Source: a virus
Length of the DNA stretch: 35,106 bases
IMG/VR virus record: IMGVR_UViG_3300045988_029541
Reading direction: 5' to 3' (one strand)
Under the pieces are notes generated by a model. It had not been told where the DNA came from. It worked only from the letters and a program-made list of their open reading frames with translations, and did no database searches. Below, one piece after another: positions 13,705 through 33,493 of the stretch (position 1 is the stretch's first letter; each line of letters starts with the position of its first letter). The position numbers were made by a program, and so were the translations under genes.

Positions 13705-13725
13705 CCCGCCACATTCCGTGGCGGG
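13705..13725 (-). promoter_or_regulatory. GC-rich hairpin 30 nt downstream of VR2 (candidate DGR target-recognition structure)
   Basis: cccgccac (13705-13712) pairs with gtggcggg (13718-13725), giving a perfect 8-bp stem and a 5-nt loop. The geometry matches the hairpin after VR1. Confidence 0.6.
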
Positions 13726-13742: not shown

Positions 13743-14384
13743 TTAGATTTCGAAGCAGAGCGGGACGGCAAGCGCAGTCGAAGCGTAGTTGTAGCTGGCA
13801 TTACCAACGCTGCCGACATTACAGAAGACCGTCGTGTTCGACGCGTCCGGGGAATCGCACCAGTACCAGTCTGTGTCCTTTCCGTCATTTCCGACTTTCT
13901 TCATTCTGTTGCGTCTATCCTTGTAAAGTTCGAACTGTTCTTCGCCTTCCACATGTTCTGCGAAAATCTCGCGTCCGTGGATCTCATATTCTGACGGGAT
14001 CCACAACTTGTCTTCACATTCGACGATCTTCCCGTCCACATACTGTCTTCTTTTTGTTGTTGCGATCACTTCTTTCAGATCCTCTGGAAGAGTGTTGAAA
14101 ACTTCCGTGTTCAATCTTCTTCGAAGATCAGATTCAGCCCAGCCGCCGTAGTTTGTTCTTTCCTCATTCATAGGCATTTCAGTTGCCAGACAGTCTTTTG
14201 ATACGAATGTCACGCGTTTTCCGTCCTCTGATACTTTTACAGCCTGCATGAAGACGATTTCGCCAGTTGTCAGTTTCAATTCAACTGTATCGCCCTGCTG
14301 CAATGCGATTTTCCCTGCTTTCACTCCTTCCGCAAGTTCCTTCCATGAAATTGACTGTTCCTTCTTTGTGATTAACTTTGCCAT
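13743..14384 (-). CDS. DGR variable protein 2 (stand-alone paralogue of the fibre head domain, C-terminal VR)
   Basis: This 213-aa ORF ends ...CDSPDASNTTVFCNVGSVGNASYNYASTALAVPLCFEI. It aligns with target 1 residues ~92-308 (LTTGE, S[KR]DCLAT, FNTLP.DL..VI, KLW[IL]PSE). Its last 40 codons are VR2. Confidence 0.85.
   Translation of the reverse strand: MAKLITKKEQSISWKELAEGVKAGKIALQQGDTVELKLTTGEIVFMQAVKVSEDGKRVTFVSKDCLATEMPMNEERTNYGGWAESDLRRRLNTEVFNTLPEDLKEVIATTKRRQYVDGKIVECEDKLWIPSEYEIHGREIFAEHVEGEEQFELYKDRRNRMKKVGNDGKDTDWYWCDSPDASNTTVFCNVGSVGNASYNYASTALAVPLCFEI
13756..13862 (-). repeat. DGR variable repeat VR2
   Basis: It is colinear with TR 23386-23492 (offset -9630). There are 11 mismatches, all where the TR has plus-strand T (an A on the coding strand): 13787, 13793, 13795, 13807, 13808, 13810, 13813, 13814, 13828, 13829, 13847. 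Confidence 0.9.
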
Positions 14385-17116: not shown

Positions 17117-17158
17117 CAAGCCCTTCAAATAAACAATGAAAAACGGGCTTGTTTTTTT
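17117..17158 (+). terminator. Possible intrinsic terminator upstream of int
   Basis: caagccc (17117-17123) pairs with gggcttg (17145-17151) and is followed by T7 (17152-17158). The 21-nt loop is long, which weakens the call. Confidence 0.35.
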
Positions 17159-17189
17159 GCGCCCATTTTTCGGAAAGAAGGTGTTGTCT

Positions 17190-18284
17190 ATGGCAATGAA
17201 AAGAGCCAACGGCGACGGATCTGTCTATAAAATAGGCGGCAAACGTCGCAAGCCCTTCGGGGCGCGAATCACTGTGGGCTGGCAGATAGATCCGAATACT
17301 GGATCAGCGCGCCAGATCTACCAGTCGATCGGGACTTTTGCAACACGTGTTGAAGCTGAAACTGCTTTGAACAATTATTTGCAAAATCCTTATGACATTG
17401 AAGCCCACAAAATCACTTTTTCTGGCGTGTATGATCTCTGGTCTGCTGAATACTATGAAACATTGAAGAATCCTTCTTCTGCCAGATCGTACAAAGCGGC
17501 ATACAATTATTGTTCCCCCATTTACGACGTGCGAATGCGTGATCTTCGTGTCAGTCATTTGCAAGGTGTGATCAAAGACGCTGACGTCGGTGAAGCCACG
17601 AAGGGACGAATGAAGTCGCTGTTCAATCTTATGTACAAATACGCCATGATTCATGAGATCGTCGACAAGGACTACAGCGCACTATTTGTCCAGAAAGTCG
17701 GAAAGCGTGACAAAACGAAGCGTGTTCCTTTCAAGAATAGCGAAGTCCAGCGTTTGTGGAAAATCCGTGATTTCGGTGTAACAGACATGATTCTATTTTC
17801 TTTATATACTGGCTTTCGTCCTTCGGAAGTCTTACTGATCGAGAATTGCAACGTCGATCTTGAACGCTGGCGTATAAAAGGCGGCATGAAAACAGAAGCT
17901 GGAACCGATCGAATCGTTCCGATCCATTCGCTGATCCGTTCGCTTGTTGTTGATCACTACAACCCAGAAAACAAATTCTTGTTCCCGAATGAGAAAAACC
18001 AGTTCATGACATATGATCAGTATCGCGGACGTTTCAAGAAGGTCATGCGCTTTCTCGGAATTACTCACACCCCGCACGAAGCGCGTCACACTTTCATTTC
18101 ATGTGCAAAGCATTTCAAAGTTGACGAAAATCTTCTGAAAGCGATCGTCGGTCACAAGATCCGTGATGTTACCGAAGCCGTTTACACACACAGAGCATAT
18201 AGCGACTACGAAGAAGCCGTTGCGCTGATCTGTTATGACGGCGAAGACATTGAATTTGAATCAATCGACGCTGAATGGGACTAA
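17190..18284 (+). CDS. int: Tyrosine recombinase (phage integrase)
   Basis: ATG 17190 (RBS GAAGGTG) opens MAMKRANGDGSVYKIGGKRRKPFGARI, an arm-binding-type N-terminus. The catalytic-region pattern is present: ...YTGFRPSE..., HEARHTFIS, GHKIRDVTEAVYTHR. Confidence 0.9.
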   Translation: MAMKRANGDGSVYKIGGKRRKPFGARITVGWQIDPNTGSARQIYQSIGTFATRVEAETALNNYLQNPYDIEAHKITFSGVYDLWSAEYYETLKNPSSARSYKAAYNYCSPIYDVRMRDLRVSHLQGVIKDADVGEATKGRMKSLFNLMYKYAMIHEIVDKDYSALFVQKVGKRDKTKRVPFKNSEVQRLWKIRDFGVTDMILFSLYTGFRPSEVLLIENCNVDLERWRIKGGMKTEAGTDRIVPIHSLIRSLVVDHYNPENKFLFPNEKNQFMTYDQYRGRFKKVMRFLGITHTPHEARHTFISCAKHFKVDENLLKAIVGHKIRDVTEAVYTHRAYSDYEEAVALICYDGEDIEFESIDAEWD

Positions 18285-18607: not shown

Positions 18608-20050
18608 TCAGCGCAACATTTCATTAACTTTCTGCTGTACTGCTGCCGCGTCATATCCAGCAGCCTTCAAAGCGTTCTTTCTGGCTTCTCCATTTTCCCA
18701 CTTGCCTTGAATAACTTCTTTTGCAAGTTCTTCGATCGACTTCTTTGAAGTGATCTTTTCCATGTACTGAACCAGATCTGCGCGCTTTGTAAGATACCAG
18801 CCAGACTTTAGTTTGTAGAAGTCGCCAGTTTCGCCGACTATTGTGAACACTTCGCCCTTCATAGCCACGCCAGCTGACTTCGCGTTGTAGTCTGGCACTG
18901 ATCTATAATTCACGCCGTCTGCGCCTGCATAAATAATCTTTGCATAGCCCTGCATTTCTTTCACGTTGTCTGTGTCGCCCTTTGGTTCTTCTGGCTGTCC
19001 CGCTGCCTGCTGCCCGATTATTCCAGAAAGAATCTTCAAGATCTTCTGTCCGTATTCTGCACCAGCCGCCCAGCCTTTGCCGTTTGGATTCTCTTGTATT
19101 CCTAACCATTCAACATACGCAGCCGAACCGCGTGTCACATACTTGAAGCGTGGATCCACGCATTCATTATTCAAAGCAGCTGTTGATCCGTATGCTTTCA
19201 AGTGCTGAATCTGTGCGCGGATTCCTTCACGCATTGTCGCAAAGCTATTGCCCTTCATTCCGTTCGCTGTCACGCCCATTCCACAGAAATTGTTCTGATC
19301 AAGTGTGACTGCGGATCCTTTGAATCCCAGATTTCCAGTTTCAAGCATTGTCTGTGCTGTTGCAATATCACCGCGAACGCCTTCTGCAATTCCCTCTTCA
19401 ATGAATGTCTGCGCCATTTCTGCTGCAAACGAAGCAGTGTTCGGATTCACTTTGATCATGTATGCTACAATCTGATCAGCTGTTGCAGCTGCGGATCCCA
19501 TGATCTTTGTGAACTCTTCTTCCTGCTTCTCTTCGCTGATCATAGCCTTGAACTTGTCCCACGTTTCGTCTGCTGCATTGAAGACGTATGGATTCGGACA
19601 GATCTTGCTCGTGACGTCATAGTGTCTGATCACATGATCTGCTGGAATGTTGTATTTCTTCATCAACGTTCGAACCAGTTCCACAGTCGCTTCAACTGTT
19701 TCTTTTGTGAAATACCAGTCTTTGTCGGAAGCCGAAAGTGTTGCAGTTGACTTTTTCTTCACTGCCATTTCTATTCCGATCGAATTTGTGTTCCTGCATT
19801 CTGCATGGACATACTTCCGCGCACCGCAATGCCATGCAACGTCGTCGTCTTCAACGATCTGGAATATGTCGCCTTCGTGTCCGACTACATAATGTGCAGA
19901 CGCTCCCGCATATTCACGCGCCCAGTATTTCGCAAGATTCAACGCTGTCGAAAGTCCGCCGAAATAATGGATCACAATATATTTGATTCTGGAAAGATCA
20001 TTCTTGTCTGTGAAGTTGATCTTTGTGATATACTGTCTATTTATATTCAT
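18608..20050 (-). CDS. Multidomain endolysin: amidase_2 + glucosaminidase + SH3 + CW_7-like repeat
   Basis: The N-terminus, IVIHYFGG...SAHYVVGHEGDIFQIVEDDDVAWHCG...NSIGIEM...HYDVTSKICP, is PGRP/amidase_2-like. The centre, AQTMLETGNLGFKGSAVTLDQNNFCGMG, is GH73-like. The SH3-like segment is GEVFTIVGETGDFYKLKSGWY. The C-terminal VIQGKWENGEARKNALKAAGYDAAAVQQKVN is Cpl-7-like. Confidence 0.9.
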   Translation of the reverse strand: MNINRQYITKINFTDKNDLSRIKYIVIHYFGGLSTALNLAKYWAREYAGASAHYVVGHEGDIFQIVEDDDVAWHCGARKYVHAECRNTNSIGIEMAVKKKSTATLSASDKDWYFTKETVEATVELVRTLMKKYNIPADHVIRHYDVTSKICPNPYVFNAADETWDKFKAMISEEKQEEEFTKIMGSAAATADQIVAYMIKVNPNTASFAAEMAQTFIEEGIAEGVRGDIATAQTMLETGNLGFKGSAVTLDQNNFCGMGVTANGMKGNSFATMREGIRAQIQHLKAYGSTAALNNECVDPRFKYVTRGSAAYVEWLGIQENPNGKGWAAGAEYGQKILKILSGIIGQQAAGQPEEPKGDTDNVKEMQGYAKIIYAGADGVNYRSVPDYNAKSAGVAMKGEVFTIVGETGDFYKLKSGWYLTKRADLVQYMEKITSKKSIEELAKEVIQGKWENGEARKNALKAAGYDAAAVQQKVNEMLR

Positions 20051-20205
20051 TCGGTAACACCTTCTTCCCCACAGAATCCCATTGAATCTGGATCGAAGCT
20101 GTTTCTGAATGCAATCAATTCGTCCTCTGTCATGTTCTTCACTTTGTCTTGAAGATCTTTGATTTCGTCGTCAGTCATGTTCTTTGTGAATTCGCTTTTT
20201 GCCAT
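20047..20205 (-). CDS. Small hypothetical protein (52 aa) between holin and endolysin
   Basis: It is below the track cut-off. Hand translation gives MAKSEFTKNMTDDEIKDLQDKVKNMTEDELIAFRNSFDPDSMGFCGEEGVTE. RBS GGAAGGAGTG lies 7 nt upstream of ATG 20205. Its stop overlaps the endolysin ATG (ATGA). Confidence 0.5.
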   Translation of the reverse strand: MAKSEFTKNMTDDEIKDLQDKVKNMTEDELIAFRNSFDPDSMGFCGEEGVTE

Positions 20206-20252
20206 TCTTGTTCACTCCTTCCGAGATAGCCCCACATTGCGCGGGCATTTGA

Positions 20253-20756
20253 TTATATTTTCTTTTTCTCTTCGTCTGTGTCGTTTGCGTCTGGGATTTC
20301 TGCTTTGTTGTTCAACATTTTCTGCGTTACCGCTAACCCTTTGATCAAGAAGTCTGGTATGTTGTACCCGCATTCGACAAGATTTTCCAGAATGCTTCGT
20401 GCTTCGTTTACAAGCAGCATTGCAAGTGTAAACCAGCCGATCAGAAGCAGAAAAGACAGATTTACATGTAAAACATCAGTGCCAAGCTGTGTGAACACAT
20501 TGCTGATTATAAAGGCTACAAGAATCACAGCCCAGTACCCCAGCTTTTTGATCGCCCCTTTCAAGCCTACTTTGCTTGATTCCTCGCCCTTCTTATTTGC
20601 TTTATACCAGCCAGTCAGCCAGTCAATGACATTCAGAAGGAAATACGCTGCGAAAATGTACCAGTATACGCCGAAAATTGCTGTCAGTATTGTCACAATC
20701 GCCCCTGCGAATGCGTTGTATTTGTCTGTGAGTGCTGTTCCGAAATTATTTGTCAT
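20253..20756 (-). CDS. Holin (phage_holin_4 / LL-H-type)
   Basis: It has multiple TM helices, NVIDWLTGWYKA...KVGLKGAIKKLGYW...VNEARSILENLVECGYNIPDFL, and a charged C-terminal tail. It lies just upstream of the endolysin. Confidence 0.8.
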   Translation of the reverse strand: MTNNFGTALTDKYNAFAGAIVTILTAIFGVYWYIFAAYFLLNVIDWLTGWYKANKKGEESSKVGLKGAIKKLGYWAVILVAFIISNVFTQLGTDVLHVNLSFLLLIGWFTLAMLLVNEARSILENLVECGYNIPDFLIKGLAVTQKMLNNKAEIPDANDTDEEKKKI

Positions 20757-20762
20757 TGTCCT

Positions 20763-21365
20763 TTACCCCCGAACATTCTTGCAGCTTTTGCAAGGTTCCT
20801 GCCCCTTCGGGATCATGTAGTTCTTGCATTCGCCGCAGTTGTTTCTTGATTTACAAGTTTCTCTTCCTTCGCAAGCTTCAATATGTCGCTTGCAAATTCC
20901 GTTTGCGCTCATTGCTGCGCATTCGAAGTTGTTCTTCCCGAATGTCATATAATACTTCGGTTTTTCTTCTCCGAATATCCGCCAGCGCAACCAGTCGTCA
21001 AGTGTAATTGCTGGTAGTGCCAGCAAAAACCAAACTGCGAAGAATTGCGGGCATATCTGCCCCATGATATTGAACTTCAAATTTGAATAGTCCCACATAT
21101 TCAAGCCAAGCCCTATGTTTAAGATCACGCCCGCCACGAATTCAACTGTCGTCACAATCACTGCACATATTAACATTTGCAACAGAAGTGGTGTTTTCCA
21201 GTCTATGAATTCATTTACCAGTCCGCACAGAACGAAGCACACCCCGCCCACGAATGCCATTGTTTTGAATGTGTACCCGCGGAAAATCAATTCACAGCAA
21301 GCGTACAGTACACCGCCCACACACAGCAGTACAATGTATTTGATTATCGTCTTCATACTTTTCAA
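20763..21365 (-). CDS. Multi-pass membrane protein with Cys-rich cytoplasmic tail
   Basis: It has about 5 hydrophobic helices (IVLLCVGGVLYACC..., NMWDYSNLKFNIMGQICPQFFAVWFLL). The last ~55 aa contain 9 Cys (CAAMSANGICKRHIEACEGRETCKSRNNCGECKNYMIPKGQEPCKSCK). Confidence 0.6.
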   Translation of the reverse strand: MKSMKTIIKYIVLLCVGGVLYACCELIFRGYTFKTMAFVGGVCFVLCGLVNEFIDWKTPLLLQMLICAVIVTTVEFVAGVILNIGLGLNMWDYSNLKFNIMGQICPQFFAVWFLLALPAITLDDWLRWRIFGEEKPKYYMTFGKNNFECAAMSANGICKRHIEACEGRETCKSRNNCGECKNYMIPKGQEPCKSCKNVRG

Positions 21366-22033
21366 GCCCTCATTGCTGCTTCATAGTCTTTCAGCACTTT
21401 TGACTTGTATTTGTCTGGAATCTGTGCGCCATACTGAATCGCTTCAATTTCCTCTGCTGTCTGCGCGCCTTTGATCCATGCGTTCATACTGTTGCAATAT
21501 GTTGTGTGGTAGGACACGAATTTCATTGCCGCTTCAATGATCTTTGTCATGTCCTCTGCTGAATAGTATTTGCAAAGTTTCCCGTCTTCGTGGTATTCCA
21601 GCTGTGTTGCTCCTGCTGCAAGCTGTGACTGCTTTCCGAACAAATTGATCTGGTCTTTTTCTTTCAAGCTGATATGCTCCACCGATCCGTCTGTCAGTTC
21701 TACGTCTACGCCTGCAAAAATTGCGCTTTCGCAACGACTTGAAACTTCTGCAAGCTTCGCTGTTCTGATCTGATCAACGTCTGGTTCCTGCTCTGGCTGC
21801 TCTACATATACAGTCCCGTCATTCGAAAGAATCATTCCGCCGTCAATTTCTTTGTACACTGTTTCGAATCCTTCGTACTTTGCGATCACGTTTCCGTATT
21901 CTGTCAGCACTTCAATTTCTGCCATGTTCTGATCTTTTGCTTTTGTTTCTGTCTGCACAAGCAACATATTCTGTGCGATTTTCTTGACGGATCCGTCGAA
22001 TACGCTGCTGTTGTCCTTGAATCTGATCTTCAT
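21362..22033 (-). CDS. Hypothetical protein downstream of the DGR RT (possibly fibre-associated)
   Basis: ATG 22033 (MKIRFKDNSS...) has the strong RBS AGGAAAGGAAGAG. The track start at 22078 is less likely. It overlaps the RT 3' end by ~120 nt in another frame. Confidence 0.6.
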   Translation of the reverse strand: MKIRFKDNSSVFDGSVKKIAQNMLLVQTETKAKDQNMAEIEVLTEYGNVIAKYEGFETVYKEIDGGMILSNDGTVYVEQPEQEPDVDQIRTAKLAEVSSRCESAIFAGVDVELTDGSVEHISLKEKDQINLFGKQSQLAAGATQLEYHEDGKLCKYYSAEDMTKIIEAAMKFVSYHTTYCNSMNAWIKGAQTAEEIEAIQYGAQIPDKYKSKVLKDYEAAMRA

Positions 22034-23177
22034 GCTTTTTCTCTTCCTTTCCTTTCCAGCTGTCAATGAATAATTCATTGAAAAGCTGATTCATATTTTG
22101 TACAGTACGCCATGACTGTTTGTGCTTCATATAGCCTTTCCATGACTGGTATTGCTGGCGCACTTCTTCGAAAGTGATTGTTCCTTCATCAAGCTTCTTT
22201 TTCAGCTTTTTCAGTTTCCGTCGTTCCAGTGTGATTGACTTTCTGCAAGGTCGCATGATTACTTTTCCAGTGTCCGGCAATGTAAACTTCGTTTTCAGAA
22301 AAGTGAATCCGCGCCGCAACGCTACAATACGCGTTTTCTTTTTATTGACTGTTATTCCCATTCTTTCATAGATTTCGAACAATGCTTTGATCGCTCTGTG
22401 TGCGTCTTCCTTTGTCTTGAATAGCAGCCATGTGTCGTCCATGTATTTAATATATTCATGAATCCGAAGCACTTCTTTCGCGTAGTGATCAGCTTTGCTT
22501 GCATATACAGTCCCGATTATCTGTGACACTTGACTACCTAGCCCGCACCCTACTTCGCCGAATGCGTCCACAAATAGCATTATGAATTCAATCATGTCTT
22601 TATCTGTGAAATGGTCTTCAAGTATTTTTCGAATGTGCCAGTGTTTCATATTCCCGAAAAAGTTTGAAAAATCCACAAGCACGACATATCCTTCATTGCT
22701 TCCAGTCTTTCTGTAATATTCCCGCAGAAAATACGCTACACGTTTTATTGCTGCATGTGTTCCTTTGCCTTTGATACATGCCATATTGTCTGATATACAA
22801 GTTCTTGTCAGCACTGGCACAAGTGCGTTGTCACAAAGTGATCTTTGAACAACTCTTTCTGATATGTGAACGCTGCTAATCTCGCGCAGTTTTCCGCGCT
22901 CCATTAGCGTGAACCTATGAAAGCCGCGTCGTATGTCTTCGCCTTTCAGAAGTTTCATATGTGTGTCATATGTCTTCCGCAGCAGGCTTGCTTCGTATCT
23001 CTGCACGCTGCATTTCCAGCGAACGCCCTTCTTTGATTTGTCGAATGCTTCCAGCAAATTTCCATAGTCGAAGACATTTTCTAGTTTTCCGTACTTTTCA
23101 TTGACTGCTTCTTTCTTTTTCCGTCGTTTCTCTTCCCTTCGGATTCTTCTTGCAGCCCTTCTTTCTTCACTTGTCAT
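21912..23177 (-). CDS. DGR reverse transcriptase
   Basis: It carries IKYMDD (RT motif C) and GLGSQVSQ, which matches [ILV]GxxxSQ, the DGR-RT hallmark. I prefer ATG 23177 (MTSEERRAARR..., GGAG 12 nt upstream), although the track ORF extends to ATG 23222. It lies 160-210 nt downstream of the TR. Confidence 0.9.
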   Translation of the reverse strand: MTSEERRAARRIRREEKRRKKKEAVNEKYGKLENVFDYGNLLEAFDKSKKGVRWKCSVQRYEASLLRKTYDTHMKLLKGEDIRRGFHRFTLMERGKLREISSVHISERVVQRSLCDNALVPVLTRTCISDNMACIKGKGTHAAIKRVAYFLREYYRKTGSNEGYVVLVDFSNFFGNMKHWHIRKILEDHFTDKDMIEFIMLFVDAFGEVGCGLGSQVSQIIGTVYASKADHYAKEVLRIHEYIKYMDDTWLLFKTKEDAHRAIKALFEIYERMGITVNKKKTRIVALRRGFTFLKTKFTLPDTGKVIMRPCRKSITLERRKLKKLKKKLDEGTITFEEVRQQYQSWKGYMKHKQSWRTVQNMNQLFNELFIDSWKGKEEKKHEDQIQGQQQRIRRIRQENRTEYVACADRNKSKRSEHGRN

Positions 23178-23385
23178 AAAATTGAACACTCCGCATACAA
23201 TATTTTGCGCCGCTATGTACATAAGCGATTGACATGAAACAAGGCTGCGCCGTCCTTGCCATGCAAGCAGCGTCCGTCAATCGCTGTCGGCGTGTAAATT
23301 TACCAATAAAGGAAGGTCAAGTGTTCCTTATTTACTTTTTGCCACTGCTTTCGTTTCCTACTCGGTCTGGGCGTGTGTATATAAT

Positions 23386-23515
23386 CAGAGCGGGACGGCA
23401 AGCGCAGTCGAAGCGTTGTTGTTGTTGGCATTACCATTGTTGTTGACATTACAGAAGTTCGTCGTGTTCGACGCGTTCGGGGAATCGCACCACCAATTAG
23501 AACGGGATCCCTGCT
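23386..23515 (-). repeat. DGR template repeat (TR)
   Basis: This 130-nt non-coding copy, read in the target frame, gives QGSRSNWWCDSPNASNTTNFCNVNNNGNANNNNASTALAVPL and then runs into TGA. The variable positions are AAC/AAT codons. It lies between the avd stop and the RT start. Confidence 0.9.
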
Positions 23516-23536
23516 TTTAACACTTAACCTATAAAA

Positions 23537-23971
23537 TTATTTGACTGATTCAGTCTTCTTTTTCATTTCTTTGTATCTTTGATTGTCAGATTTCTTCCAT
23601 GCCGTTATATATCCCTTTTCCGAAATTACCATTCCGACAATATTTTTCAGCTGTCCGCTATCTATCCCAAGCACTGTGCGAAGGCTTTGCAGTTTTTGCA
23701 GTATCTTTTCACAGTTCGCATTTGCTTCGTTCTGATAGCGTCTTCTGTCGATTACTTCTTCATTTGTCTTCACGAAGATTGTGTTTGCGTTCACGACATT
23801 ATCAACCAGTGCTTGTCCTTCCGCTATAATCGGTATTGCATACACGAATCTGTATTTCTTCGGGACATTCTTTTCTTCCATGCAGAATTTTATCAATTCA
23901 TTCTGAACGTCCACGGCTGTTTGAAAGAACTGCATTTCGGATTGTTCGCGTCTGCTTTTCAAAACGCTCAT
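23537..23971 (-). CDS. avd: Accessory variability determinant (Avd-like four-helix-bundle protein)
   Basis: ATG 23971 (RBS AAAGGAGAG 8 nt upstream) opens MSVLKSRREQSEMQFFQTAVDVQNELIKFCMEEKNVPKKYRFVYAIPIIAEGQALVDNVVNAN... The protein is 144 aa, basic and helical, and sits between the target gene and the TR. Confidence 0.75.
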   Translation of the reverse strand: MSVLKSRREQSEMQFFQTAVDVQNELIKFCMEEKNVPKKYRFVYAIPIIAEGQALVDNVVNANTIFVKTNEEVIDRRRYQNEANANCEKILQKLQSLRTVLGIDSGQLKNIVGMVISEKGYITAWKKSDNQRYKEMKKKTESVK

Positions 23972-23997
23972 GCTGCAACTCTCCTTTCGCCAGTATT

Positions 23998-24018
23998 CAC
24001 GCCGCACACGGCGGCGTG
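23998..24018 (-). promoter_or_regulatory. GC-rich hairpin 29 nt downstream of VR1 (candidate DGR target-recognition structure)
   Basis: cacgccgc (23998-24005) pairs with gcggcgtg (24011-24018), giving a perfect 8-bp stem and a 5-nt loop. It lies in the target1-avd intergenic space. Confidence 0.6.
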
Positions 24019-24034
24019 ATTTTTTGATTCAAGA

Positions 24035-24961
24035 TTATACTGTAAAGCAGAGCGGGACGGCACGCGCAGTCGAAGCGTTGCCGAGGTAGGCATAACCATC
24101 GTCGATGACACGACAGAAGCTCGTCGTGCCCGACGCGTTCGGGGAATCGCACCACCAATTAGAACGGGATCCCTGCTCCGCCTTTCCTTTTCCCTGCCCT
24201 TTGCATATATGCCGAAGTGATCCAGTGAAGATCGGAAACTGTACGCCGCAGCCGTTGCCATATCCAACTTCCGACCATGAGTTATGCCCCCAGACTTCCA
24301 CTTCGGAAGGAAGCCACAACTTCTGATCTTCCTGCCACGCCCAGCTTCCCTTTGTGCTGCAAAGTCTCTTGTCTGCTTTTATTACCGCGCGAAGATCTGC
24401 TGGAAGCGTGTTGAAGATTGTCGTGTTCAGTGTTGTCTTCAAGGCACTTGCTGGGAATCCGCCAGTGTTCGTGTTTGTACTGTTCATTGCGTATGCTGTT
24501 GCAAGGCAATCGCGCGAAATAAAGTACAATCTGTGATTATTGTTCGACTGATAGCCGAAATATGTATCAATTCCCGCAAGTTCCATTCTGACTGATTCAC
24601 CAGTCGTCAGTGTAATGTCTTTATAATCGCCAATATTCAGCCCCGTGAAGTCGCCTGCTGCCGCTTTCGCTGCAATTTCGTTCCATGACAACTTGATTTC
24701 TTTTCCGTTGTAGCCATATGCGGCGCGGATCTGCGCTTGTTTATCATTCAGTGCATTTGCTACAAGATAGCCTTCTGGGATATATCCTTTTTCTGTGATT
24801 TCAAGCGTGTCGACAATCCCCAGCGACACTTTGACCGCATTCATAAGGTCTGAATATTTGATTGTCTTTGTTCCGCTGGACTTCTCAACAATCAAAATGT
24901 CGTCTGCTGCAATATCTGTCGTCTGTGCAATCTGGTTGATTGTTTTTTCTGGTAAACTCAT
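24035..24961 (-). CDS. DGR variable protein 1: tail fibre / receptor-binding protein with C-terminal VR
   Basis: This 308-aa ORF is the last gene of the tail module. It ends ...NWWCDSPNASGTTSFCRVIDDGYAYLGNASTARAVPLCFTV. VR1 occupies its last 43 codons. Confidence 0.85.
   Translation of the reverse strand: MSLPEKTINQIAQTTDIAADDILIVEKSSGTKTIKYSDLMNAVKVSLGIVDTLEITEKGYIPEGYLVANALNDKQAQIRAAYGYNGKEIKLSWNEIAAKAAAGDFTGLNIGDYKDITLTTGESVRMELAGIDTYFGYQSNNNHRLYFISRDCLATAYAMNSTNTNTGGFPASALKTTLNTTIFNTLPADLRAVIKADKRLCSTKGSWAWQEDQKLWLPSEVEVWGHNSWSEVGYGNGCGVQFPIFTGSLRHICKGQGKGKAEQGSRSNWWCDSPNASGTTSFCRVIDDGYAYLGNASTARAVPLCFTV
24048..24177 (-). repeat. DGR variable repeat VR1
   Basis: It is colinear with TR 23386-23515 (offset +662) with no indels. 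There are 15 mismatches. 14 are at TR plus-strand T (coding-strand A), and the one exception is 24063. Confidence 0.9.
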
Positions 24962-24979
24962 TCTTTTTTCATTCCTTTC

Positions 24980-25915
24980 TTACAATGTTGCAAATATTTT
25001 TCTTGCACATATTCTTTCGCCGTCGTCTGTCACAATCAGTTCGTCGTCGCTTGTTGCCATGTTCTGAATTACTTCGTTTGTTGCCGCGATTTTTTCCATT
25101 ACGTCTGCACGTTCCTGCAATTCTTGAATATATAAAAGCAGTTTTCCCGCTGTCTCGTCGTCCAGAATTCCTTTGATCGTTTCAACCCATGTTTCAAATT
25201 CAGACTGTTGCTGGCTTGTGTAATTCTGCAAATACTGTTTGAAGTTCTCCAGAAACACGTCCGCTGCCGTTTTGTCGTCGTCAACACTGTCTTTATAGTC
25301 CTGCAAGTATTCGCCCGCTGCCGTCTGTTTCTGGTCAATTCCTTCTTCAAAGTCCTCGACGTCGAATGCAATTCTTGTCTTCTGTTCTTCGAAATATTTA
25401 TCGAACTGTGCATATATCTGCGAAAAATCAATCTGATCGACCGCCCCAGATACCCAGCCGCATTTTGCATTGTCCATTCTTGTATCTGTAATCATTGACT
25501 GTGTGATCACTGTTGTTCCTGCTGCAATGTATACTTCTGCGATTGTGATTTCAAATACAGTGTCACTTCTTGTATTTGCTGGCTTTGCTGGCGAAGCTGC
25601 ATTCCCGCCTTTGTCTGCGTATGCTGTTATCGTTCTTGCTGATAGATCCAGCTTGATCTTGATAGCGTCATATCTGTTCAGATTTCCGCTTGCGACTTCC
25701 AGATCAATGACCAGTGGTTCTGTGTTCTGGTAGCCGTAGCCAATAAGCCACGCATACCCCGCTTTCACAGTCACTGACATTGCGCCATTCGCAACAACTT
25801 GAAGATCTCCGTTGAATACTCCGCTTTTGAATAACGGCTTGAAATAATTCGCCCAGTGTGTAGCATTATATTTTCTGTCCCCGCCCTTCGAATTGAAGAA
25901 TGTTGCTATTTCCAT
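24980..25915 (-). CDS. Tail fibre / baseplate-associated structural protein
   Basis: This 311-aa ORF lies between Tal and the DGR target. Its N-terminus, FFNSKGGDRKYNATHWANYFKPLFKSGVF, is a pattern I associate with Firmicutes phage fibre proteins. The C-terminal half is acidic and coiled-coil-like. Confidence 0.5.
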   Translation of the reverse strand: MEIATFFNSKGGDRKYNATHWANYFKPLFKSGVFNGDLQVVANGAMSVTVKAGYAWLIGYGYQNTEPLVIDLEVASGNLNRYDAIKIKLDLSARTITAYADKGGNAASPAKPANTRSDTVFEITIAEVYIAAGTTVITQSMITDTRMDNAKCGWVSGAVDQIDFSQIYAQFDKYFEEQKTRIAFDVEDFEEGIDQKQTAAGEYLQDYKDSVDDDKTAADVFLENFKQYLQNYTSQQQSEFETWVETIKGILDDETAGKLLLYIQELQERADVMEKIAATNEVIQNMATSDDELIVTDDGERICARKIFATL

Positions 25916-25930
25916 TGTTTCACCTTCTTT

Positions 25931-27025
25931 CTAATTATCATCAAGATTCACTGTTTCTGGCAGTGGATCGCCAAACGTCGGAACTATATCGAAGCCGCCG
26001 TTTTCAAAGATCTCTTGAATTTCCGTGATTCGCTTGTCCATTTCTATTCCCCACATTTTCTTTTTCACTGTCACAACATCACCCAGATCGTAATCTTCAC
26101 GATATACAAAATTGACAAACGGCTTTGTCTGTGCGTCCATAGCTTCCACAATTCCATATTCAGCCAGTTTTTCGTTTCCCTTCTGTTTCAAAATTTCTGT
26201 GTATTCCGCCGTTGTCATGTCGTCGTCTTTCTGGACGTCCCTCGCGTCAACAATGACTTCGCGAAGATCCCAACCAGTGCCGCCGCCCACTGTCACCAGC
26301 GTTCTTGCTGTTCCTTCTCCCTCACCCGCCACGATTGCGCATGTCTTCGTGTTCTGATTGCTGAATACATATGCAACGCCGTTCAAATTCTTGTAGATTT
26401 CAGAGAAAACGACACGGCTTCTTTCTCTCTGTGATTCCGTTCTGTCAACTCCCTTGTATACTTCAAAGAAGAACTTCTTTGCCTTGAAGTCGGCACGAAT
26501 AGTGAACCCAAGATTGCTATATTTTGATAGTTTGCACATGTATGTATACAGTTCTTTGTACGAAACTTGAAATCGGACTGTTTCTGTGAATCCTTTTAAT
26601 TCTCCCAGTTCTACGAATGGCATTGCTGTCACCGACTGCACCAGCTTTCGCATTCCCGCTTCTGTCTTTCCGTTGAAGTTTACGACTGTTTTTATTGCTC
26701 TTCTGTCCATGATTGAAGACAAGAATCGCCCTTTTGCCGTGATTTCATTCACTGTGTCGTCAATCGCTATATACTCAACTATTCCGCTTTCTTTGCTTGT
26801 CGTTTTTACGATATGCCCGTTTTTGTCTTTGAACTCCCGCTTTGATAGAATGTTATTTTCTGCCAGAAGTTGCAAATTTCTTGTGTTCAGTGGTGCGTGA
26901 AGTTCGAATGTTCCGCATTCATAATATTTCCGTGTCCAGATCAAAGATCTGAACACGTCAATCACTCCTAGTCGGTTCAAGTTCTGATCATACGAAACAA
27001 CAATGACTTTGTTTTCTTTTGACAT
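25931..27025 (-). CDS. Tail-associated protein (Tal; prophage-tail-endopeptidase-family N-terminal domain)
   Basis: It follows Dit. The N-terminus, VIVVSYDQNLNRLGVIDVFRSLIWTRKYYECGTFELHAP, is typical of siphovirus Tal/Gp37-like proteins. Confidence 0.6.
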   Translation of the reverse strand: MSKENKVIVVSYDQNLNRLGVIDVFRSLIWTRKYYECGTFELHAPLNTRNLQLLAENNILSKREFKDKNGHIVKTTSKESGIVEYIAIDDTVNEITAKGRFLSSIMDRRAIKTVVNFNGKTEAGMRKLVQSVTAMPFVELGELKGFTETVRFQVSYKELYTYMCKLSKYSNLGFTIRADFKAKKFFFEVYKGVDRTESQRERSRVVFSEIYKNLNGVAYVFSNQNTKTCAIVAGEGEGTARTLVTVGGGTGWDLREVIVDARDVQKDDDMTTAEYTEILKQKGNEKLAEYGIVEAMDAQTKPFVNFVYREDYDLGDVVTVKKKMWGIEMDKRITEIQEIFENGGFDIVPTFGDPLPETVNLDDN

Positions 27026-27912: not shown

Positions 27913-30642
27913 TCACCCCGCTTTCAGTTTCAAAACCATTTGTCGTGTCTGGTTTCGTGTCTGTCGTGCTACTTCTGACGGCGAAAGTTCTTTCGGACTG
28001 TTGATTGTTATATTCTGCGTGAATCCGCCTGCTGCCGTCTGTGTTGCATAACTTGCAGATCCAGACTTTGTATTGATATAACTGTCGATCGTTGTCGGTA
28101 CACCTTTTCGCATTGCTTCTTTGATTCTGTCTTCTTCTTCGTCCATTCCGTCTTCAACGCCTTCTGCCATACCAGCTGGAATCATTTTTCCAACTTGATC
28201 ACGCATGACACGTGACGGCGAATGAATTCCGAAAAAGTCTTTTACCGCGTCCAATGCAGACGAAGCCAGATCTTTGAATACTTGAATCAAACTGCTTGCC
28301 GCATTCTTTACGCCTTGAATAACTCCGTCTATGATGTTTTTTCCAAGTGATAACCAGTCCGTATTCATGATCGTGTCCCAGATTGCGGAAATAATCTGCG
28401 GAACTGCCGCGATCAGTGCTGGAATGGCTTGAATCAATCCGCTGATCAGCGATCCGATCAATTCGATTCCCATTTGTAAAATTTTCGGAAGATTTGTCGT
28501 GAGTGTATTGACGACTGATGTGATAATCTGTGGAACTGCCGCGATCAGCTGTGGGATCGCGCTTATGATTCCATTGATCAAAGATTGCAGAAGTGTGATT
28601 CCTGCTTGAATGATTTGCGGTAGCATACCAGTCAGCGTGGAAACAATCGTCGTTATAATTGTTGGAAGCATGACGATCAGCTGTGGGATCGCGCTTACAA
28701 TTCCGTTAATCAGTGCGATCAGCAGATCAAGTCCAGCTTGAATAATTTGCGGGAGATTTTCCATGATAGAATTCACAATCACTGGGAACAAGTCGATCAC
28801 GGCTTGAATCAGTGAAGGAATTGCGTTTGTGATTCCGTTGATCAAATTGACCAGAATTTCAATTCCAGACGCTACGATCTGCGGAAGATTTGCTGTGAGT
28901 GTATCTGTTATATTTTGAATCATTACTGGCAGCATAGCCAGCAAGTTTGGGATCGTCTGATTCAATCCGTCCAGAATCCCTTGAAACAATGAAATCGCCG
29001 CATTCAGCACTTCTGGGAGAAGTGTCGGAAGCAACGCTATTGCCGCATTGATCAGCCCGAAGAACGCGTCAACAAGTGGTTGCATTAGCGACGTTATCAG
29101 TCCTTGTCCTTCTTGAAAAACTGTCGTCAGTGTTCCTGCAAGCCCTTGAATAATTATCGGTACATTTTCAACGATTGACGTGACTGCTTGAATCACTCGC
29201 GGAATCAAGTTGTTTGCTGCTGTTGCCACCGAATCACACAGATCTGTGATCAGTGCGCCGACGTCTGCTTCGTCATTTGCAAATCCAGTCAAGAGATTCG
29301 ACCACGCCGCCTTTGTCGAATTGATCGAACCTTCGATTGTCGTGCTTGCTTCTTTTGCTGTCGTTCCCGTGATTCCCATTTCTGTTTGAACAACGTGAAT
29401 CGCGTCAACAATATCTGCGTATGAAGATATGTCATACTTGACACCAGAAAGCTTTGTCGCGTCGTCAAGAAGCCTTTGCATTTCTTCTTTCGTTCCGCCA
29501 TATCCCAGCTTTAGGTTGTCCAGCATTGTATAATTTTGCTTCGCGAATCCTTGATATGCCGTTTGAATGCTGTCAATGCTTGTTCCCATTTTATTTGCAT
29601 TGTCCGACATATCCGTTATAGCCATATCCGCTTTTTCTGCGGCTGCTTTTGTGTCTCCGTCCAGACTTTGAAGAAGTGACGCCGAAAATCCCGTCACAGT
29701 GTCCATGTATTGATTTGCAGACATTCCCGCCGTTTTATATGCATTGTTTGCATATCCTTCAACTTGTCCTGCGGAATCCTTGAAAAGCGTTTCCACACCG
29801 CCGACAAGCTGTTCATACTCTGCATACTGTTCGACAGCTGACTTTGTTACCGCTACGCCAGCCCCCACGACAGCTGTTGCGAATCCTGCAAAAGCTTTCA
29901 TTGTTCCTCCGACAACATTCGTCAGCACTGTGAATCCGCCTTTTGCCGCCGACGCTGCAACGTCTCCGACTGCTTTCAACTGCGTTGATAGCGGCGGAAT
30001 CTTTTCTTTGACTTCATTCGCTGCCGTCTTCACTTTTCCGAATGCGTCTGCTACCTTCTGGACGGCTGGGTGCGCGTCTTTGAATGCTTCAACCTTCTGT
30101 TTTGCGCCTTCCACAGTAGTTCCGATCTTTTTGACAGCTTCGCTTTCTTTTACTGTTTCAGTGATTTTCCCTTTCACTTTCACGAAGCCGTCTGCAAGTT
30201 TATTCACCACTGGGATTTTGCTTGCTATATTGTATATTTTTGTTCCCAGCGTTTCAGCTTCTTTTGCCGCTTTCTTTTGCTGGTCTTCTACTGCTTTCAA
30301 TTCTGTTTTGTAGTCTGAAAGCTTTGATTTTGTCAGTGCGATTTCTCTTTGTAAATCTCTGTATCCTTCGTCGTTTACGTCCTTCCCTGCTTCCGCCATT
30401 TCCTTTTCAGCTTGCGTCAGCAATTTCAGCTTTTCTTCTGTTTCGGAAACGGCTTGCTTCAAGATCACTTGCTTTTGTGCTGCCAGTTCTGTATTTTTGG
30501 GATCCAGTTTCAGAAGCGAATTCACGCCCTTCAATTCAGACTGTAGGCTTTTGGCGTTTGCGTTTACCGAAGACAACGCTTTGTTCAGCGGCGTCGTATT
30601 CCCGTCGATTTCGACTGTTATGCCTTTCAAGCCTTTCGACAT
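27913..30642 (-). CDS. Tape measure protein
   Basis: The ORF is 909 aa and lies downstream of the G/GT chaperones. The N-terminus is coiled-coil-like. Four tandem 44-aa hydrophobic repeats (LPQII.AG...LINGI.SAIPQLI...) lie at 28360-28887. Confidence 0.9.
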   Translation of the reverse strand: MSKGLKGITVEIDGNTTPLNKALSSVNANAKSLQSELKGVNSLLKLDPKNTELAAQKQVILKQAVSETEEKLKLLTQAEKEMAEAGKDVNDEGYRDLQREIALTKSKLSDYKTELKAVEDQQKKAAKEAETLGTKIYNIASKIPVVNKLADGFVKVKGKITETVKESEAVKKIGTTVEGAKQKVEAFKDAHPAVQKVADAFGKVKTAANEVKEKIPPLSTQLKAVGDVAASAAKGGFTVLTNVVGGTMKAFAGFATAVVGAGVAVTKSAVEQYAEYEQLVGGVETLFKDSAGQVEGYANNAYKTAGMSANQYMDTVTGFSASLLQSLDGDTKAAAEKADMAITDMSDNANKMGTSIDSIQTAYQGFAKQNYTMLDNLKLGYGGTKEEMQRLLDDATKLSGVKYDISSYADIVDAIHVVQTEMGITGTTAKEASTTIEGSINSTKAAWSNLLTGFANDEADVGALITDLCDSVATAANNLIPRVIQAVTSIVENVPIIIQGLAGTLTTVFQEGQGLITSLMQPLVDAFFGLINAAIALLPTLLPEVLNAAISLFQGILDGLNQTIPNLLAMLPVMIQNITDTLTANLPQIVASGIEILVNLINGITNAIPSLIQAVIDLFPVIVNSIMENLPQIIQAGLDLLIALINGIVSAIPQLIVMLPTIITTIVSTLTGMLPQIIQAGITLLQSLINGIISAIPQLIAAVPQIITSVVNTLTTNLPKILQMGIELIGSLISGLIQAIPALIAAVPQIISAIWDTIMNTDWLSLGKNIIDGVIQGVKNAASSLIQVFKDLASSALDAVKDFFGIHSPSRVMRDQVGKMIPAGMAEGVEDGMDEEEDRIKEAMRKGVPTTIDSYINTKSGSASYATQTAAGGFTQNITINSPKELSPSEVARQTRNQTRQMVLKLKAG

Positions 30643-33112: not shown

Positions 33113-33435
33113 TGCTCTTCCTCGCTTTCTGCACTCTCTGGCGATTTTTGAGACTGAATTGCTCCACGAAGCGCAAGTGCTGTCAATTCTGACGAAAAAT
33201 CGTGTTTGAACTGTTCGATTGCGTTTGAACGCCCGTATCTGCAATACGAAACAAGCAGTTCCATTGCTTGTCCGTCTTTGTCAAATTCAATTTCTGATCC
33301 GAATTTGTCGTTCAGATAGGCTTTCCCGCGCTTTAATATCCCAGCTATTTTCTTTTCCAGTCTGTCGTCTTTGAACGTTATATCCAACTCATTCAGAACG
33401 TCTTCCAGAAGTCCGTCTTTTTCTGTTTCCGCCAT
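33109..33435 (-). CDS. Head-tail connector (gp6-like / DNA-packaging QLRG-family)
   Basis: LLEDVLNELDITFKDDRLEKKIAGILKRGKAYLNDKFG matches the gp6-like connector N-terminal pattern. It is the first gene after the capsid gene. Confidence 0.6.
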   Translation of the reverse strand: MAETEKDGLLEDVLNELDITFKDDRLEKKIAGILKRGKAYLNDKFGSEIEFDKDGQAMELLVSYCRYGRSNAIEQFKHDFSSELTALALRGAIQSQKSPESAESEEEQ

Positions 33436-33493
33436 ATTGCACCACCTTCATGAATGGCAGCAAGGTTTCAAGCCCTGCTGCCGTCCTTATTCT

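What the first reader, a model, noticed from the sequence alone, without database searches (positions are those of the whole stretch)
21912..24961. Complete diversity-generating retroelement (target/VR1 - avd - TR - RT) at the tail-fibre/lysis junction
Seen: TR 23386-23515 and VR1 24048-24177 align colinearly with no indels (offset 662). Of 15 mismatches, 14 are where the TR has T on the plus strand, which is A on the coding minus strand. These are VR1 coordinates 24081, 24082, 24084, 24085, 24088, 24094, 24100, 24103, 24105, 24111, 24112, 24120, 24129 and 24130. The substitutions go to all three other bases. Read in the target frame, the TR gives ...WWCDSPNASNTTNFCNVNNNGNANNNNASTALAVPL, so the variable positions are AAC/AAT codons. 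The TR is not inside an ORF. VR1 forms the last 43 codons of the 308-aa fibre ORF (...NASGTTSFCRVIDDGYAYLGNASTARAVPLCFTV). The RT ORF carries IKYMDD and LGSQVSQ ([ILV]GxxxSQ). A 144-aa basic helical Avd-like ORF sits between the target and the TR. Established: this is the architecture and the adenine-specific mutagenic retrohoming signature of DGRs, with Bordetella phage BPP-1 mtd-avd-TR-brt as the prototype. Inference: the phage hypervaries about 12 codons of its receptor-binding tip.
Basis: partly seen in the sequence, partly recalled or inferred. Interest (0 to 1): 0.9.

Follow-up and report, generated by a model that had tools for sequence, protein, structure and literature searches.

The report
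Two-target DGR in gut prophage
This is a genuine diversity-generating retroelement in a human-gut temperate phage that rewrites the tip of a tail protein and of a second, distant protein. It is a close architectural copy of the system already described in Roseburia phage Shimadzu, so it is real but ordinary.

Summary
TR 23383-23515 and VR1 24045-24177 align without indels. Of 16 mismatches, 15 are at TR adenines on the coding (minus) strand (hypergeometric P about 1e-9).

All canonical DGR parts are present in canonical order:
- target gene with VR1
- a GC hairpin after VR1
- an Avd four-helix bundle
- a non-coding TR
- a structured spacer RNA (Rfam RT-2, 131.6 bits)
- an RT whose best solved-structure match is the BPP-1 DGR RT

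VR2 (13753-13862) ends a 213-aa paralog 9.6 kb away in the early-gene region. All 12 of its mismatches are at TR adenines, and it has its own hairpin.

Near-identical phage contigs carry the same TR but different VR1 and VR2 sequences. VR1 varies at 22% of columns, against 1.4% in the rest of the cassette. Nearly all of that variation is at TR adenines, so the element family is active in nature.

The same design occurs in Roseburia phage Shimadzu, where both VRs were shown experimentally to be modified: tail target, Avd, TR, RT-2 RNA, RT, plus a remote small DUF6273 target beside the SSB gene.

Verdict: correct interpretation, a new member of a known kind, low surprise.

The parts
24035..24961 (-). 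Target gene 1: 308 aa, with a DUF6273 domain at the C-terminus and a short N-terminal region that presumably anchors it to the tail.
   Evidence: ORF. Pfam DUF6273 E 1.2e-8. AlphaFold model pLDDT 84.7, with residues 90-308 above 90. BFVD Foldseek hits to phage DUF6273, receptor-binding and tail-fibre proteins, E 1e-15 to 1e-6. It lies directly after the Dit, Gp37-like and virion-protein genes.
24045..24177 (-). VR1, the variable repeat at the 3' end of target 1.
   Evidence: 133-nt ungapped match to the TR with 16 mismatches, 15 at TR adenines. In four near-identical relatives plus the window, 29 of 133 columns vary, 25 of them at TR-A positions.
23997..24019 (-). GC-rich hairpin (9-bp stem, 5-nt loop) 25 nt downstream of VR1. 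It is a candidate DGR target-recognition hairpin or cruciform.
   Evidence: DNA fold -12.7 kcal/mol, z -4.78, 0 of 200 shuffles as good. It is conserved in relatives L016, L017 and L018. No T-run follows it, so it is not a typical terminator. There is no equivalent after the TR.
23537..23971 (-). avd, the accessory variability determinant (144 aa).
   Evidence: PHROG 3206 'Avd protein of DGR' E 5.7e-13. The model is a four-helix bundle, pLDDT 86.4. Foldseek top hits are the 23S-IVP/Avd-like bundles 2gsc and 2rld, then BPP-1 Avd 4dwl_D (TM 0.79) and 8ub7_C (TM 0.81). It is 28% identical to the annotated Avd of phage Shimadzu. The start at 23971 agrees with homologs.
23383..23515 (-). TR, the template repeat. 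It is non-coding and adenine-rich, with 13 AAY codons in the target frame.
   Evidence: It is identical in six related contigs whose VRs differ. No minus-strand ORF covers it.
23166..23375 (-). [quoted passage not shown] It is the presumed counterpart of the BPP-1 'Sp' region that primes cDNA synthesis.
   Evidence: cmscan 131.6 bits against a gathering score of 40, E 1e-31, full model 1-222. The same family sits at the same place in L016, L017, L018 and phage Shimadzu.
21912..23177 (-). DGR reverse transcriptase (421 aa from the ATG at 23177; the longest ORF starts at 23222).
   Evidence: Pfam RVT_1 E 1.4e-14. PHROG 1423 E 1.4e-78. Best PDB match is BPP-1 bRT 8ub7_A, E 3.4e-17, with 24% identity over 341 aa, E 5e-21. 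The motifs LGSQVSQ and YMDD are present.
13743..14384 (-). Target gene 2: 213 aa, essentially a DUF6273 domain alone. It is a paralog of residues 87-308 of target 1 and sits in the early-gene operon upstream of SSB.
   Evidence: ORF. Pfam DUF6273 E 1.9e-13. 41% identity to target 1. 40% identity over its full length to Shimadzu orf43, the second DGR target of that phage. Gene context.
13753..13862 (-). VR2, the second variable repeat (110 nt, matching TR 23383-23492).
   Evidence: 12 mismatches to the TR, all at TR adenines. Among four related contigs 21 of 110 columns vary, 20 at TR-A.
13705..13725 (-). GC-rich hairpin (8-bp stem, 5-nt loop) 27 nt downstream of VR2.
   Evidence: DNA fold -13.5 kcal/mol, z -4.85, 0 of 200 shuffles as good. 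Relative to the VR1 hairpin, two stem positions changed on both sides (A-T to C-G and G-C to A-T), read directly from the sequences. A matching hairpin follows Shimadzu VR2.

Best explanation
This is a functional diversity-generating retroelement of a roughly 35-kb temperate siphovirus from the human gut. Its host is probably a Lachnospiraceae bacterium.

Proposed mechanism:
1. An RNA spanning the TR and the structured RT-2 spacer is bound by the RT-Avd complex.
2. The RT copies the TR into cDNA, misincorporating opposite template adenines.
3. The cDNA replaces the homologous VR at the 3' end of a target gene. Recipient sites are marked by the GC-rich 3' end of the repeat (VR has CTGCTT where the TR has CTGATT) and by a GC hairpin 25-27 nt downstream.

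Two genes are recipients. One is a 308-aa tail-module protein next to the cassette. The other is a 213-aa paralog 9.6 kb away in the early operon. Because the variable adenines sit in 13 AAY codons, on the order of 1e18 protein variants of the DUF6273 binding surface are possible without creating stop codons.

Shown here: the parts, the adenine-specific pattern, and diversification of both VRs among natural relatives.

Inferred from established DGR biology (BPP-1) and from the Shimadzu experiments: the priming role of the spacer RNA, the role of the hairpins, and that target 1 is the receptor-binding protein.
For: - TR/VR1 and TR/VR2 show adenine-only mismatches.
- The RT is closest to BPP-1 bRT.
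- Avd is supported by profile and by fold.
- The RT-2 RNA lies in the TR-RT spacer.
- Hairpins follow both VRs but not the TR.
- Relatives with 99-100% identical RT and identical TR have different VR1. Column variability is 22% in VR1 against 1.4% elsewhere, and 25 of 29 variable VR1 columns are TR-A sites. VR2 behaves the same way.
- A TR point change in L014 is mirrored in its VR1. The changes in L017's TR relative to the window's TR all recur in its own VR1. Both indicate TR-to-VR information transfer.
- More distant relatives (RT 70-77% identical), including a prophage in Faecalicatena faecalis, keep a 133-nt TR/VR pair with 17/17, 14/14, 13/13 and 6/7 mismatches at A.
- The same two-target design occurs in Roseburia phage Shimadzu. 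There both VRs were seen to be modified in virion DNA reads (bioRxiv 10.1101/575076).
Against: - No reads are available for this assembly, so activity in this particular genome is not shown. Identical VR1 and VR2 alleles recur in several human-gut assemblies. That could mean slow turnover, or simply re-assembly of the same samples.
- VR1 carries one non-adenine difference from the TR (24063), so it has not been overwritten since that mutation arose.
- Avd and the target have no detectable sequence similarity to BPP-1 Avd or Mtd.
- The C-type-lectin fold is only weakly supported by Foldseek (E above 0.5).
Confidence: 0.95

Rival explanations
1. The cassette is a DGR by descent but is no longer active in this genome. 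The VR differences would be relics of past retrohoming, now evolving only by ordinary mutation.
For: VR1 has one non-adenine mismatch to the TR in the otherwise invariant 3' part. The exact VR1 and VR2 alleles recur in several assemblies. A relative exists in which avd, TR and RT are deleted while a diversified VR1 persists (L005), so loss does happen in this lineage.
Against: The RT ORF is intact with YMDD and LGSQVSQ. The TR, the RT-2 RNA (full-length, 131.6 bits) and both hairpins are intact. Relatives with the same TR and a 99-100% identical RT carry many different VRs.
Confidence: 0.06
2. The diversified proteins are not host-receptor binders. They would be adhesins for non-host ligands such as mucus or other gut glycans, or, for the small early-operon target, a protein acting inside the cell or lysogen. 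In that case the DGR would tune something other than host range.
For: Target 2 lacks the N-terminal 86 residues of target 1, has no signal peptide, and is encoded among early genes next to SSB rather than in the tail module. The same placement is kept in a myovirus, phage Shimadzu. The literature leaves the function of second or small DUF6273 targets open (PMC10743442; PMC11792537). A DUF6273 domain also forms the N-terminal domain of a bacterial IgA peptidase (Foldseek 9qa6; PMC12402451).
Against: Target 1 sits at the distal end of the tail gene block. Its structural neighbours in BFVD include proteins named receptor-binding or tail-fibre proteins. No direct evidence on ligands exists for either protein.
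Confidence: 0.25
3. The RT belongs to a group II intron, retron or abortive-infection/defence RT, and the two repeats are ordinary diverged duplicates.
For: NCBIfam's best-scoring model is the group II intron RT/maturase, with weaker hits to Drt3a and a retron RT. NCBIfam returned no DGR-RT family among its matches.
Against: All those scores are far below the curated cut-offs (87.8 against 300, 39.9 against 200, 29.4 against 235). The best solved-structure match is the DGR RT. The Rfam scan of 21500-25200 found only RT-2 above its gathering score and no group II intron or retron RNA. The mismatch pattern is adenine-specific with P about 1e-9. Avd is present.
Confidence: 0.01

Closest known systems
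DGR of Roseburia phage Shimadzu (LR596903.1; Cornuault et al., bioRxiv 10.1101/575076 / ISME J 2020)
   Same: - Same order of parts: tail-module target with a C-terminal DUF6273 VR, Avd, TR, RT-2 spacer RNA, RT.
- A second, remote VR at the 3' end of a roughly 210-aa DUF6273-only protein in the early/replication module just upstream of SSB.
- Protein identities: RT 50%, target 2 40%, target 1 C-terminal domain 35%, Avd 28%.
- Same TR 'CTGATT' against VR 'CTGCTT' difference, and a GC hairpin after each VR.
- Both VRs were experimentally seen to be modified in Shimadzu.
   Different: Shimadzu is a myovirus (sheath and baseplate genes). The window is a siphovirus (Dit, Gp37-like; no sheath). Target 1 is 431 aa with a long fibre N-terminus in Shimadzu and 308 aa here. 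There is no detectable nucleotide similarity by megablast against the phage collection that holds Shimadzu. The DGR cassette plus remote target therefore appears to travel between different phage chassis.
Bordetella phage BPP-1 DGR (mtd-avd-TR-brt), the prototype
   Same: Same gene order, with a VR at the 3' end of a tail gene and an adenine-specific TR-to-VR pattern. The RT is homologous (24% identity, E 5e-21; PDB 8ub7_A is the best hit). Avd has the same four-helix-bundle fold. TR and VR are about 134 nt in both.
   Different: The target is a DUF6273 protein with no detectable sequence relation to Mtd (hhalign probability 0.4%). Avd is not alignable by sequence. The spacer RNA belongs to Rfam RT-2, whereas BPP-1's spacer was assigned to RT-10 (PMC5737381). 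This element has two DGR targets. The 'VR2' annotated in the BPP-1 record (33229-33558) is a differently labelled 330-nt repeat region that I did not analyse.
DUF6273-type DGR targets of human-gut phages (Faecalibacterium phages Lelie, CP11, Roos, Pioen; phages nd4 and nd12 with 'tentaclins')
   Same: The targets carry DUF6273, with the VR mapping to the C-terminal end of that domain in the Faecalibacterium phage targets and in the small tgt2 proteins of nd4 and nd12. Pairs of a large and a small target diversified from one TR are reported. Models of this domain are reported to resemble C-type lectins with a hypervariable beta-hairpin (PMC11792537; PMC10743442). In my model the VR covers strands 281-285 and 291-295, a hairpin.
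   Different: RT identity to those phages is only 28-33%. In nd4 and nd12 both targets lie within the cassette, and the tentaclin has its VR near the 5' end. Here the small target is 9.6 kb away in the early operon.

Membership tests
Diversity-generating retroelement (DGR) | A template repeat and at least one variable repeat that differ almost only at TR adenines. | tested here: met
   VR1: 15 of 16 mismatches at A. VR2: 12 of 12. P about 1e-9 for VR1.
Diversity-generating retroelement (DGR) | A reverse transcriptase of the DGR type next to the TR, with the [ILV]GxxxSQ motif and YxDD. | tested here: met
   Best PDB match is BPP-1 bRT, E 3.4e-17, ahead of group II RTs at 1.8e-8. LGSQVSQ and YMDD are present. 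PHROG 1423 E 1.4e-78. No formal RT phylogeny was run.
Diversity-generating retroelement (DGR) | The VR lies at the 3' end of a protein-coding target, and the TR is non-coding. | tested here: met
   VR1 ends three codons before the stop of the 308-aa ORF. VR2 ends three codons before the stop of the 213-aa ORF. No same-strand ORF covers the TR, and in the target frame the TR ends in TGA.
Diversity-generating retroelement (DGR) | An accessory protein Avd (small basic four-helix bundle) between target and TR. | tested here: met
   PHROG 3206 'Avd protein of DGR' E 5.7e-13. The model has four helices. TM 0.79-0.81 to BPP-1 Avd chains and 0.80-0.84 to 23S-IVP family bundles. Sequence profile searches against PDB and against BPP-1 Avd were negative. 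No Pfam hit.
Diversity-generating retroelement (DGR) | Recipient-site signals: a GC-rich 3' end of the VR that differs from the TR (IMH against IMH*) and a downstream hairpin or cruciform. | tested here: inconclusive
   A GC-rich identical 3' segment ends in VR CTGCTT against TR CTGATT. This is conserved in every relative and in Shimadzu. Hairpins follow both VRs with z about -4.8, and none follows the TR. The features are present. Their function cannot be tested in silico.
Diversity-generating retroelement (DGR) | Evidence of ongoing diversification (VR varies while the TR is conserved among close relatives). | tested here: met
   VR1: 29 of 133 variable columns against 42 of 2917 elsewhere, 25 of 29 at TR-A. 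VR2: 21 of 110, 20 at TR-A. This is population-level evidence from related contigs, not from reads of this assembly.
Diversity-generating retroelement (DGR) | The variable protein has a C-type-lectin (or Ig-like) fold that tolerates variation. | tested here: inconclusive
Rfam RF03077 (RT-2 RNA) | Score at or above the family's gathering threshold, over the full model, next to an RT gene. | tested here: met
   131.6 bits against 40, model positions 1-222 of 222, immediately upstream of the RT start.
Mtd (BPP-1 major tropism determinant) family | Sequence or profile homology to Mtd. | tested here: not met
   hhalign of a 50-sequence profile against Mtd gives probability 0.4%, E 0.15. phmmer against PDB gives no hit.
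Pfam DUF6273 | Score above the Pfam gathering threshold. | tested here: met
   Target 1: 35.5 bits against 23.5. Target 2: 51.1 bits against 23.5.
Group II intron / retron / Drt reverse transcriptases | Score above the NCBIfam curated cut-off, and an associated intron or msr-msd RNA. | tested here: not met
   Scores of 87.8 against 300 (group II), 29.4 against 235 (retron) and 39.9 against 200 (Drt3a). The Rfam scan of the region found only RT-2 above its gathering score.

The most novel reading that the evidence does not exclude
The small remote target (13743-14384) is not a virion protein. It would be an early-expressed, cytoplasmic DUF6273 binding protein whose DGR-driven diversification serves an intracellular or lysogen-level function, for example recognising variable host or competing-phage factors. 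Its position beside the SSB and recombination genes is conserved between a siphovirus and a myovirus, which would then reflect function rather than accident. A second modest novelty is that Rfam's orphan 'RT-2 RNA' would be the priming spacer RNA of this DGR lineage.
Probability: 0.15. Interest if true: 0.6.

Novelty: new member of a known kind. Interest (0 to 1): 0.27.

Why it matters
The finding adds a well-documented natural example of a two-target DGR in a human-gut Lachnospiraceae-type temperate phage, with population evidence that both targets are being rewritten. It shows that the cassette plus its remote small target is a portable unit found in both sipho- and myoviruses. It also places an uncharacterised Rfam family (RT-2) in the TR-RT spacer of a DGR lineage that has been shown to be active. 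None of this changes current understanding of DGRs. Its value is for annotation and as a tractable case for asking what the small early-operon target does.

Tried and rejected
- Megablast of the cassette against the INPHARED phage collection found no match. Only protein-level relatives exist there.
- Sequence searches of Avd (single sequence and 16-sequence profile) against PDB found nothing meaningful. hhalign against BPP-1 Avd found nothing. The Avd assignment therefore rests on the PHROG profile and the predicted fold.
- phmmer of target 1 against PDB found no hit. hhalign of the target profile against Mtd was not significant.
- Foldseek of target 1 against PDB did not return the known DGR variable proteins, only weak C-type-lectin matches. 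I therefore do not claim the C-lectin fold as shown.
- NCBIfam gave only sub-threshold hits for the RT and nothing for Avd or the targets.
- I looked for VR2 in the relatives L013, L015, L010, L016 and L018. None lies within the fetched loci. Homology of L013, L015 and L010 to the window ends at about 20280, so the second target is not universal in the lineage, or it lies outside the fetched stretch.
- The published ISME J version of the Shimadzu paper could not be retrieved. The bioRxiv version was used instead.
- I considered that the hairpins might be intrinsic terminators. I rejected this because neither is followed by a T-run.

Full report
**Observation**

The repeat finder returns one direct-repeat family in 20000-27000: 133 nt at 23383-23515 and 24045-24177, offset 662, ungapped, 88% identical.

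A base-by-base comparison gives 16 mismatches. Fifteen are T on the plus strand of the TR, which is A on the coding (minus) strand. The substitutions go to G (8), T (4) and C (3). With 34 A among 133 positions, 15 or more of 16 mismatches at A has hypergeometric P = 1.0e-9. The single non-adenine difference is at TR 23401 / VR1 24063. The quoted translations and the RT motifs (LGSQVSQ, IKYMDD) are correct.

**Parts of the cassette on the minus strand**

- **Target 1 (24035-24961, 308 aa).** It matches Pfam DUF6273 (E 1.2e-8).
- **avd (23537-23971, 144 aa).** It has no Pfam hit. It matches PHROG 3206 'Avd protein of DGR' (E 5.7e-13). Its AlphaFold model (pLDDT 86.4) is a four-helix bundle. The best Foldseek matches are the Avd-like 23S-IVP bundles 2gsc and 2rld, then BPP-1 Avd itself (4dwl_D, TM 0.79; 8ub7_C, TM 0.81). 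Sequence-level comparison with BPP-1 Avd is negative.
- **TR (23383-23515).** No same-strand ORF covers it.
[quoted passage not shown] The authors of that family noted that RT-10 lies between TR and RT in BPP-1, and they speculated that other RT motifs belong to DGRs (PMC5737381). Here RT-2 occupies exactly that position. The same holds in four other DGR loci, including phage Shimadzu.
- **RT (21912-23177).** It matches Pfam RVT_1 and PHROG 1423. Among solved structures its best match is the BPP-1 DGR RT (8ub7_A, E 3.4e-17), ahead of group II intron RTs (1.8e-8) and a retron-type RT (8.5e-4). It is 24% identical to Brt over 341 residues. NCBIfam group II, retron and Drt models all score far below their cut-offs.

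Scanning the whole window for the non-adenine backbone of the TR finds a third copy at 13753-13862. It forms the 3' end of a 213-aa ORF (13743-14384, minus strand). All 12 of its differences from the TR are at TR adenines.

The protein is DUF6273 (E 1.9e-13). It is a paralog of residues 87-308 of target 1 (41% identity), so it lacks the N-terminal 86 residues.

It lies in the early operon: after a Cro-like HTH gene and three small ORFs, and a few genes upstream of SSB.

**Recipient-site features**

Both VRs end in CTGCTT where the TR has CTGATT. In the target frame this is TGC (Cys) in the VRs and TGA (stop) in the TR. The difference is the same in every relative examined and in Shimadzu, with no variation at that adenine. 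It therefore most likely marks the boundary beyond which TR information is not transferred.

A TR point change six nucleotides upstream of that adenine in relative L014 is mirrored in its VR1, so transfer reaches at least that far.

A GC-rich hairpin follows each VR by 25-27 nt. The one after VR1 is at 23997-24019 (9-bp stem, z -4.78). The one after VR2 is at 13705-13725 (8-bp stem, z -4.85). Nothing comparable follows the TR (z +0.88). Between the two hairpins, two stem positions differ on both sides, which preserves pairing. The VR1 hairpin is kept in relatives whose flanks are about 73-75% identical. Shimadzu has a hairpin after each of its VRs. Neither hairpin has a T-run. This matches the hairpin/cruciform recipient signal known from BPP-1 (established knowledge). 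Its function here is an inference.

**Evidence of activity**

IMG/VR holds several contigs from one metagenome whose RT is 99-100% identical and whose TR is identical to the window's. Across the 3050-nt cassette of the window and four such contigs, 29 of 133 VR1 columns vary (22%), against 42 of 2917 elsewhere (1.4%). Of the 29 variable VR1 columns, 25 are TR-adenine positions.

VR2 behaves the same way in four contigs: 21 of 110 columns vary, 20 of them at TR adenines.

More distant relatives keep a 133-nt TR/VR pair with 6/7, 13/13, 17/17 and 14/14 mismatches at A. These are L016 (RT 70% identical), L017, a Faecalicatena faecalis prophage (L018, 77%) and a MAG labelled Roseburia hominis (L019, 77%). 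In L017, the positions where its TR differs from the window's TR carry the same bases in its own VR1.

This is the population signature of mutagenic retrohoming. It does not prove activity in this particular genome. The exact VR1 and VR2 alleles recur in several human-gut assemblies of PRJEB1220, which may be the same samples assembled more than once.

**Context**

The window is a circularly permuted temperate siphovirus genome. Its genes include:
- portal, TerL, capsid, tape measure, Dit and a Gp37-like tail protein
- a virion protein, then the DGR
- a DUF4376 fibre-like protein, holin and endolysin
- integrase and a cI-like repressor on the opposite strand
- an early operon with target 2, SSB, Rep, VRR-NUC and ParA/ParB

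**The target fold**

The model of target 1 is confident from residue 90 onward. The VR maps to strands 269-275, 281-285 and 291-295, which form a beta-hairpin region.

Foldseek against BFVD finds many phage DUF6273 proteins, some named receptor-binding or tail-fibre proteins (E 1e-15 to 1e-6). Against PDB the best hit is the DUF6273-containing N-terminal domain of a Thomasclavelia ramosa IgA peptidase (E 2e-3; PMC12402451). About 40 C-type-lectin domains follow, at non-significant E-values.

**Comparison with what is known**

The closest characterised system is the DGR of Roseburia phage Shimadzu. It has a tail-fibre target with VR1, Avd, TR, RT-2 RNA and RT. It also has a second VR at the end of orf43, a 209-aa DUF6273-only protein immediately upstream of Erf and SSB.

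Identities to the window are 50% (RT), 40% (small target), 35% (large target, C-terminal domain) and 28% (Avd). In Shimadzu both VRs were seen to be modified in virion reads and in evolved isolates (bioRxiv 10.1101/575076).

Shimadzu is a myovirus and the window is a siphovirus, with no detectable nucleotide similarity by megablast. The cassette and its remote partner therefore move between phage chassis.

Large and small DUF6273 target pairs are also reported in Faecalibacterium phages (PMC11792537).

**Verdict**

The element is a complete DGR that is very probably active, and it is better described as a two-target system with a structured spacer RNA. It is a new member of a known kind.

The open question with some interest is what the small early-operon target does. 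Its conserved position next to the SSB and recombination genes, and its lack of a virion-anchoring N-terminus, leave room for a non-structural role. I have no evidence for that beyond gene context.

Noticed in passing
window 23166-23375 (-); also L026 19715-19938, L016 9801-10013, L017 8479-8688, L018 9747-9957: The Rfam family RF03077 (RT-2 RNA, listed only as 'Gene; sRNA') fills the TR-to-RT spacer in five DGR loci, including the experimentally active Shimadzu DGR. RT-2 is therefore probably the spacer/priming RNA of this DGR lineage. The family's authors proposed this link only for RT-10 in BPP-1.
   Followed up: partly
L005 (IMGVR_UViG_3300045988_001859), about 2262/2263: A close relative has a deletion running from inside avd to near the end of the RT gene (cassette positions 1064-2858). 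It removes the TR and the RT, yet its target gene is intact and its VR1 carries 13 A-site differences from the TR. It is a DGR-less derivative with a 'frozen' VR.
   Followed up: partly
L012/L002 (IMGVR_UViG_3300045988_003623), L012 about 9075-9095: VR1 in this relative lacks about 60 nt between two copies of GGTGGTGC. The second copy was created by A-to-G changes of GGTAATGC. There is also a 1-nt insertion, so the target is frameshifted. This could be aberrant retrohoming (template slippage) or a metagenome-assembly artefact in a hypervariable region.
   Followed up: partly
window 23537-23971 against homologs P0066, P0067, P0070, P0072, P0075; L017 about 8174-8295: Several Avd homologs carry an extra C-terminal helix of about 40 aa (about 185 aa in total). 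The window's Avd lacks it. L017 has a matching insertion of about 120 nt at the end of avd.
   Followed up: no
window 5929-7629 (-) and 17136-18284 (+): The phage encodes ParA (AAA_31/CbiA) and a ParB-like protein next to a Rep protein, as well as a tyrosine integrase and a cI-like repressor. It therefore carries both integration and partition functions.
   Followed up: no
window about 20280: Nucleotide homology to the closest IMG/VR relatives (L010, L013, L015; 97-99% identity across the tail and DGR region) stops abruptly near 20280, at the 3' end of the holin gene. The endolysin, lysogeny and early modules are therefore mosaic, and those relatives show no VR2 in the fetched stretch.
   Followed up: partly
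window 21912-22078 (-): The 3' end of the RT ORF overlaps the start of the downstream DUF4376 fibre-like gene. The overlap is 56 nt by the gene call in L031 and up to 167 nt for the longest ORF. The last 50 or so RT residues are not matched by the tblastn alignments to the 77%-identical relatives.
   Followed up: no
L013 4281-4788, L017 2764-3328, L018 4154-4732 (about 5 kb upstream of the RT; not mapped to a gene): Diverged tandem repeats with a 132-nt period (about 60-69% identity) recur at the same relative position in all relatives. That position is about 5 kb upstream of the RT, where the window has its tape-measure gene (27913-30642). They are unrelated to the DGR.
   Followed up: no
cluster of P0001: The 90%-identity cluster of the target 1 protein contains 731 distinct member sequences, against 1-45 for the other clusters in that list. 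This is as expected for a hypervariable protein.
   Followed up: no
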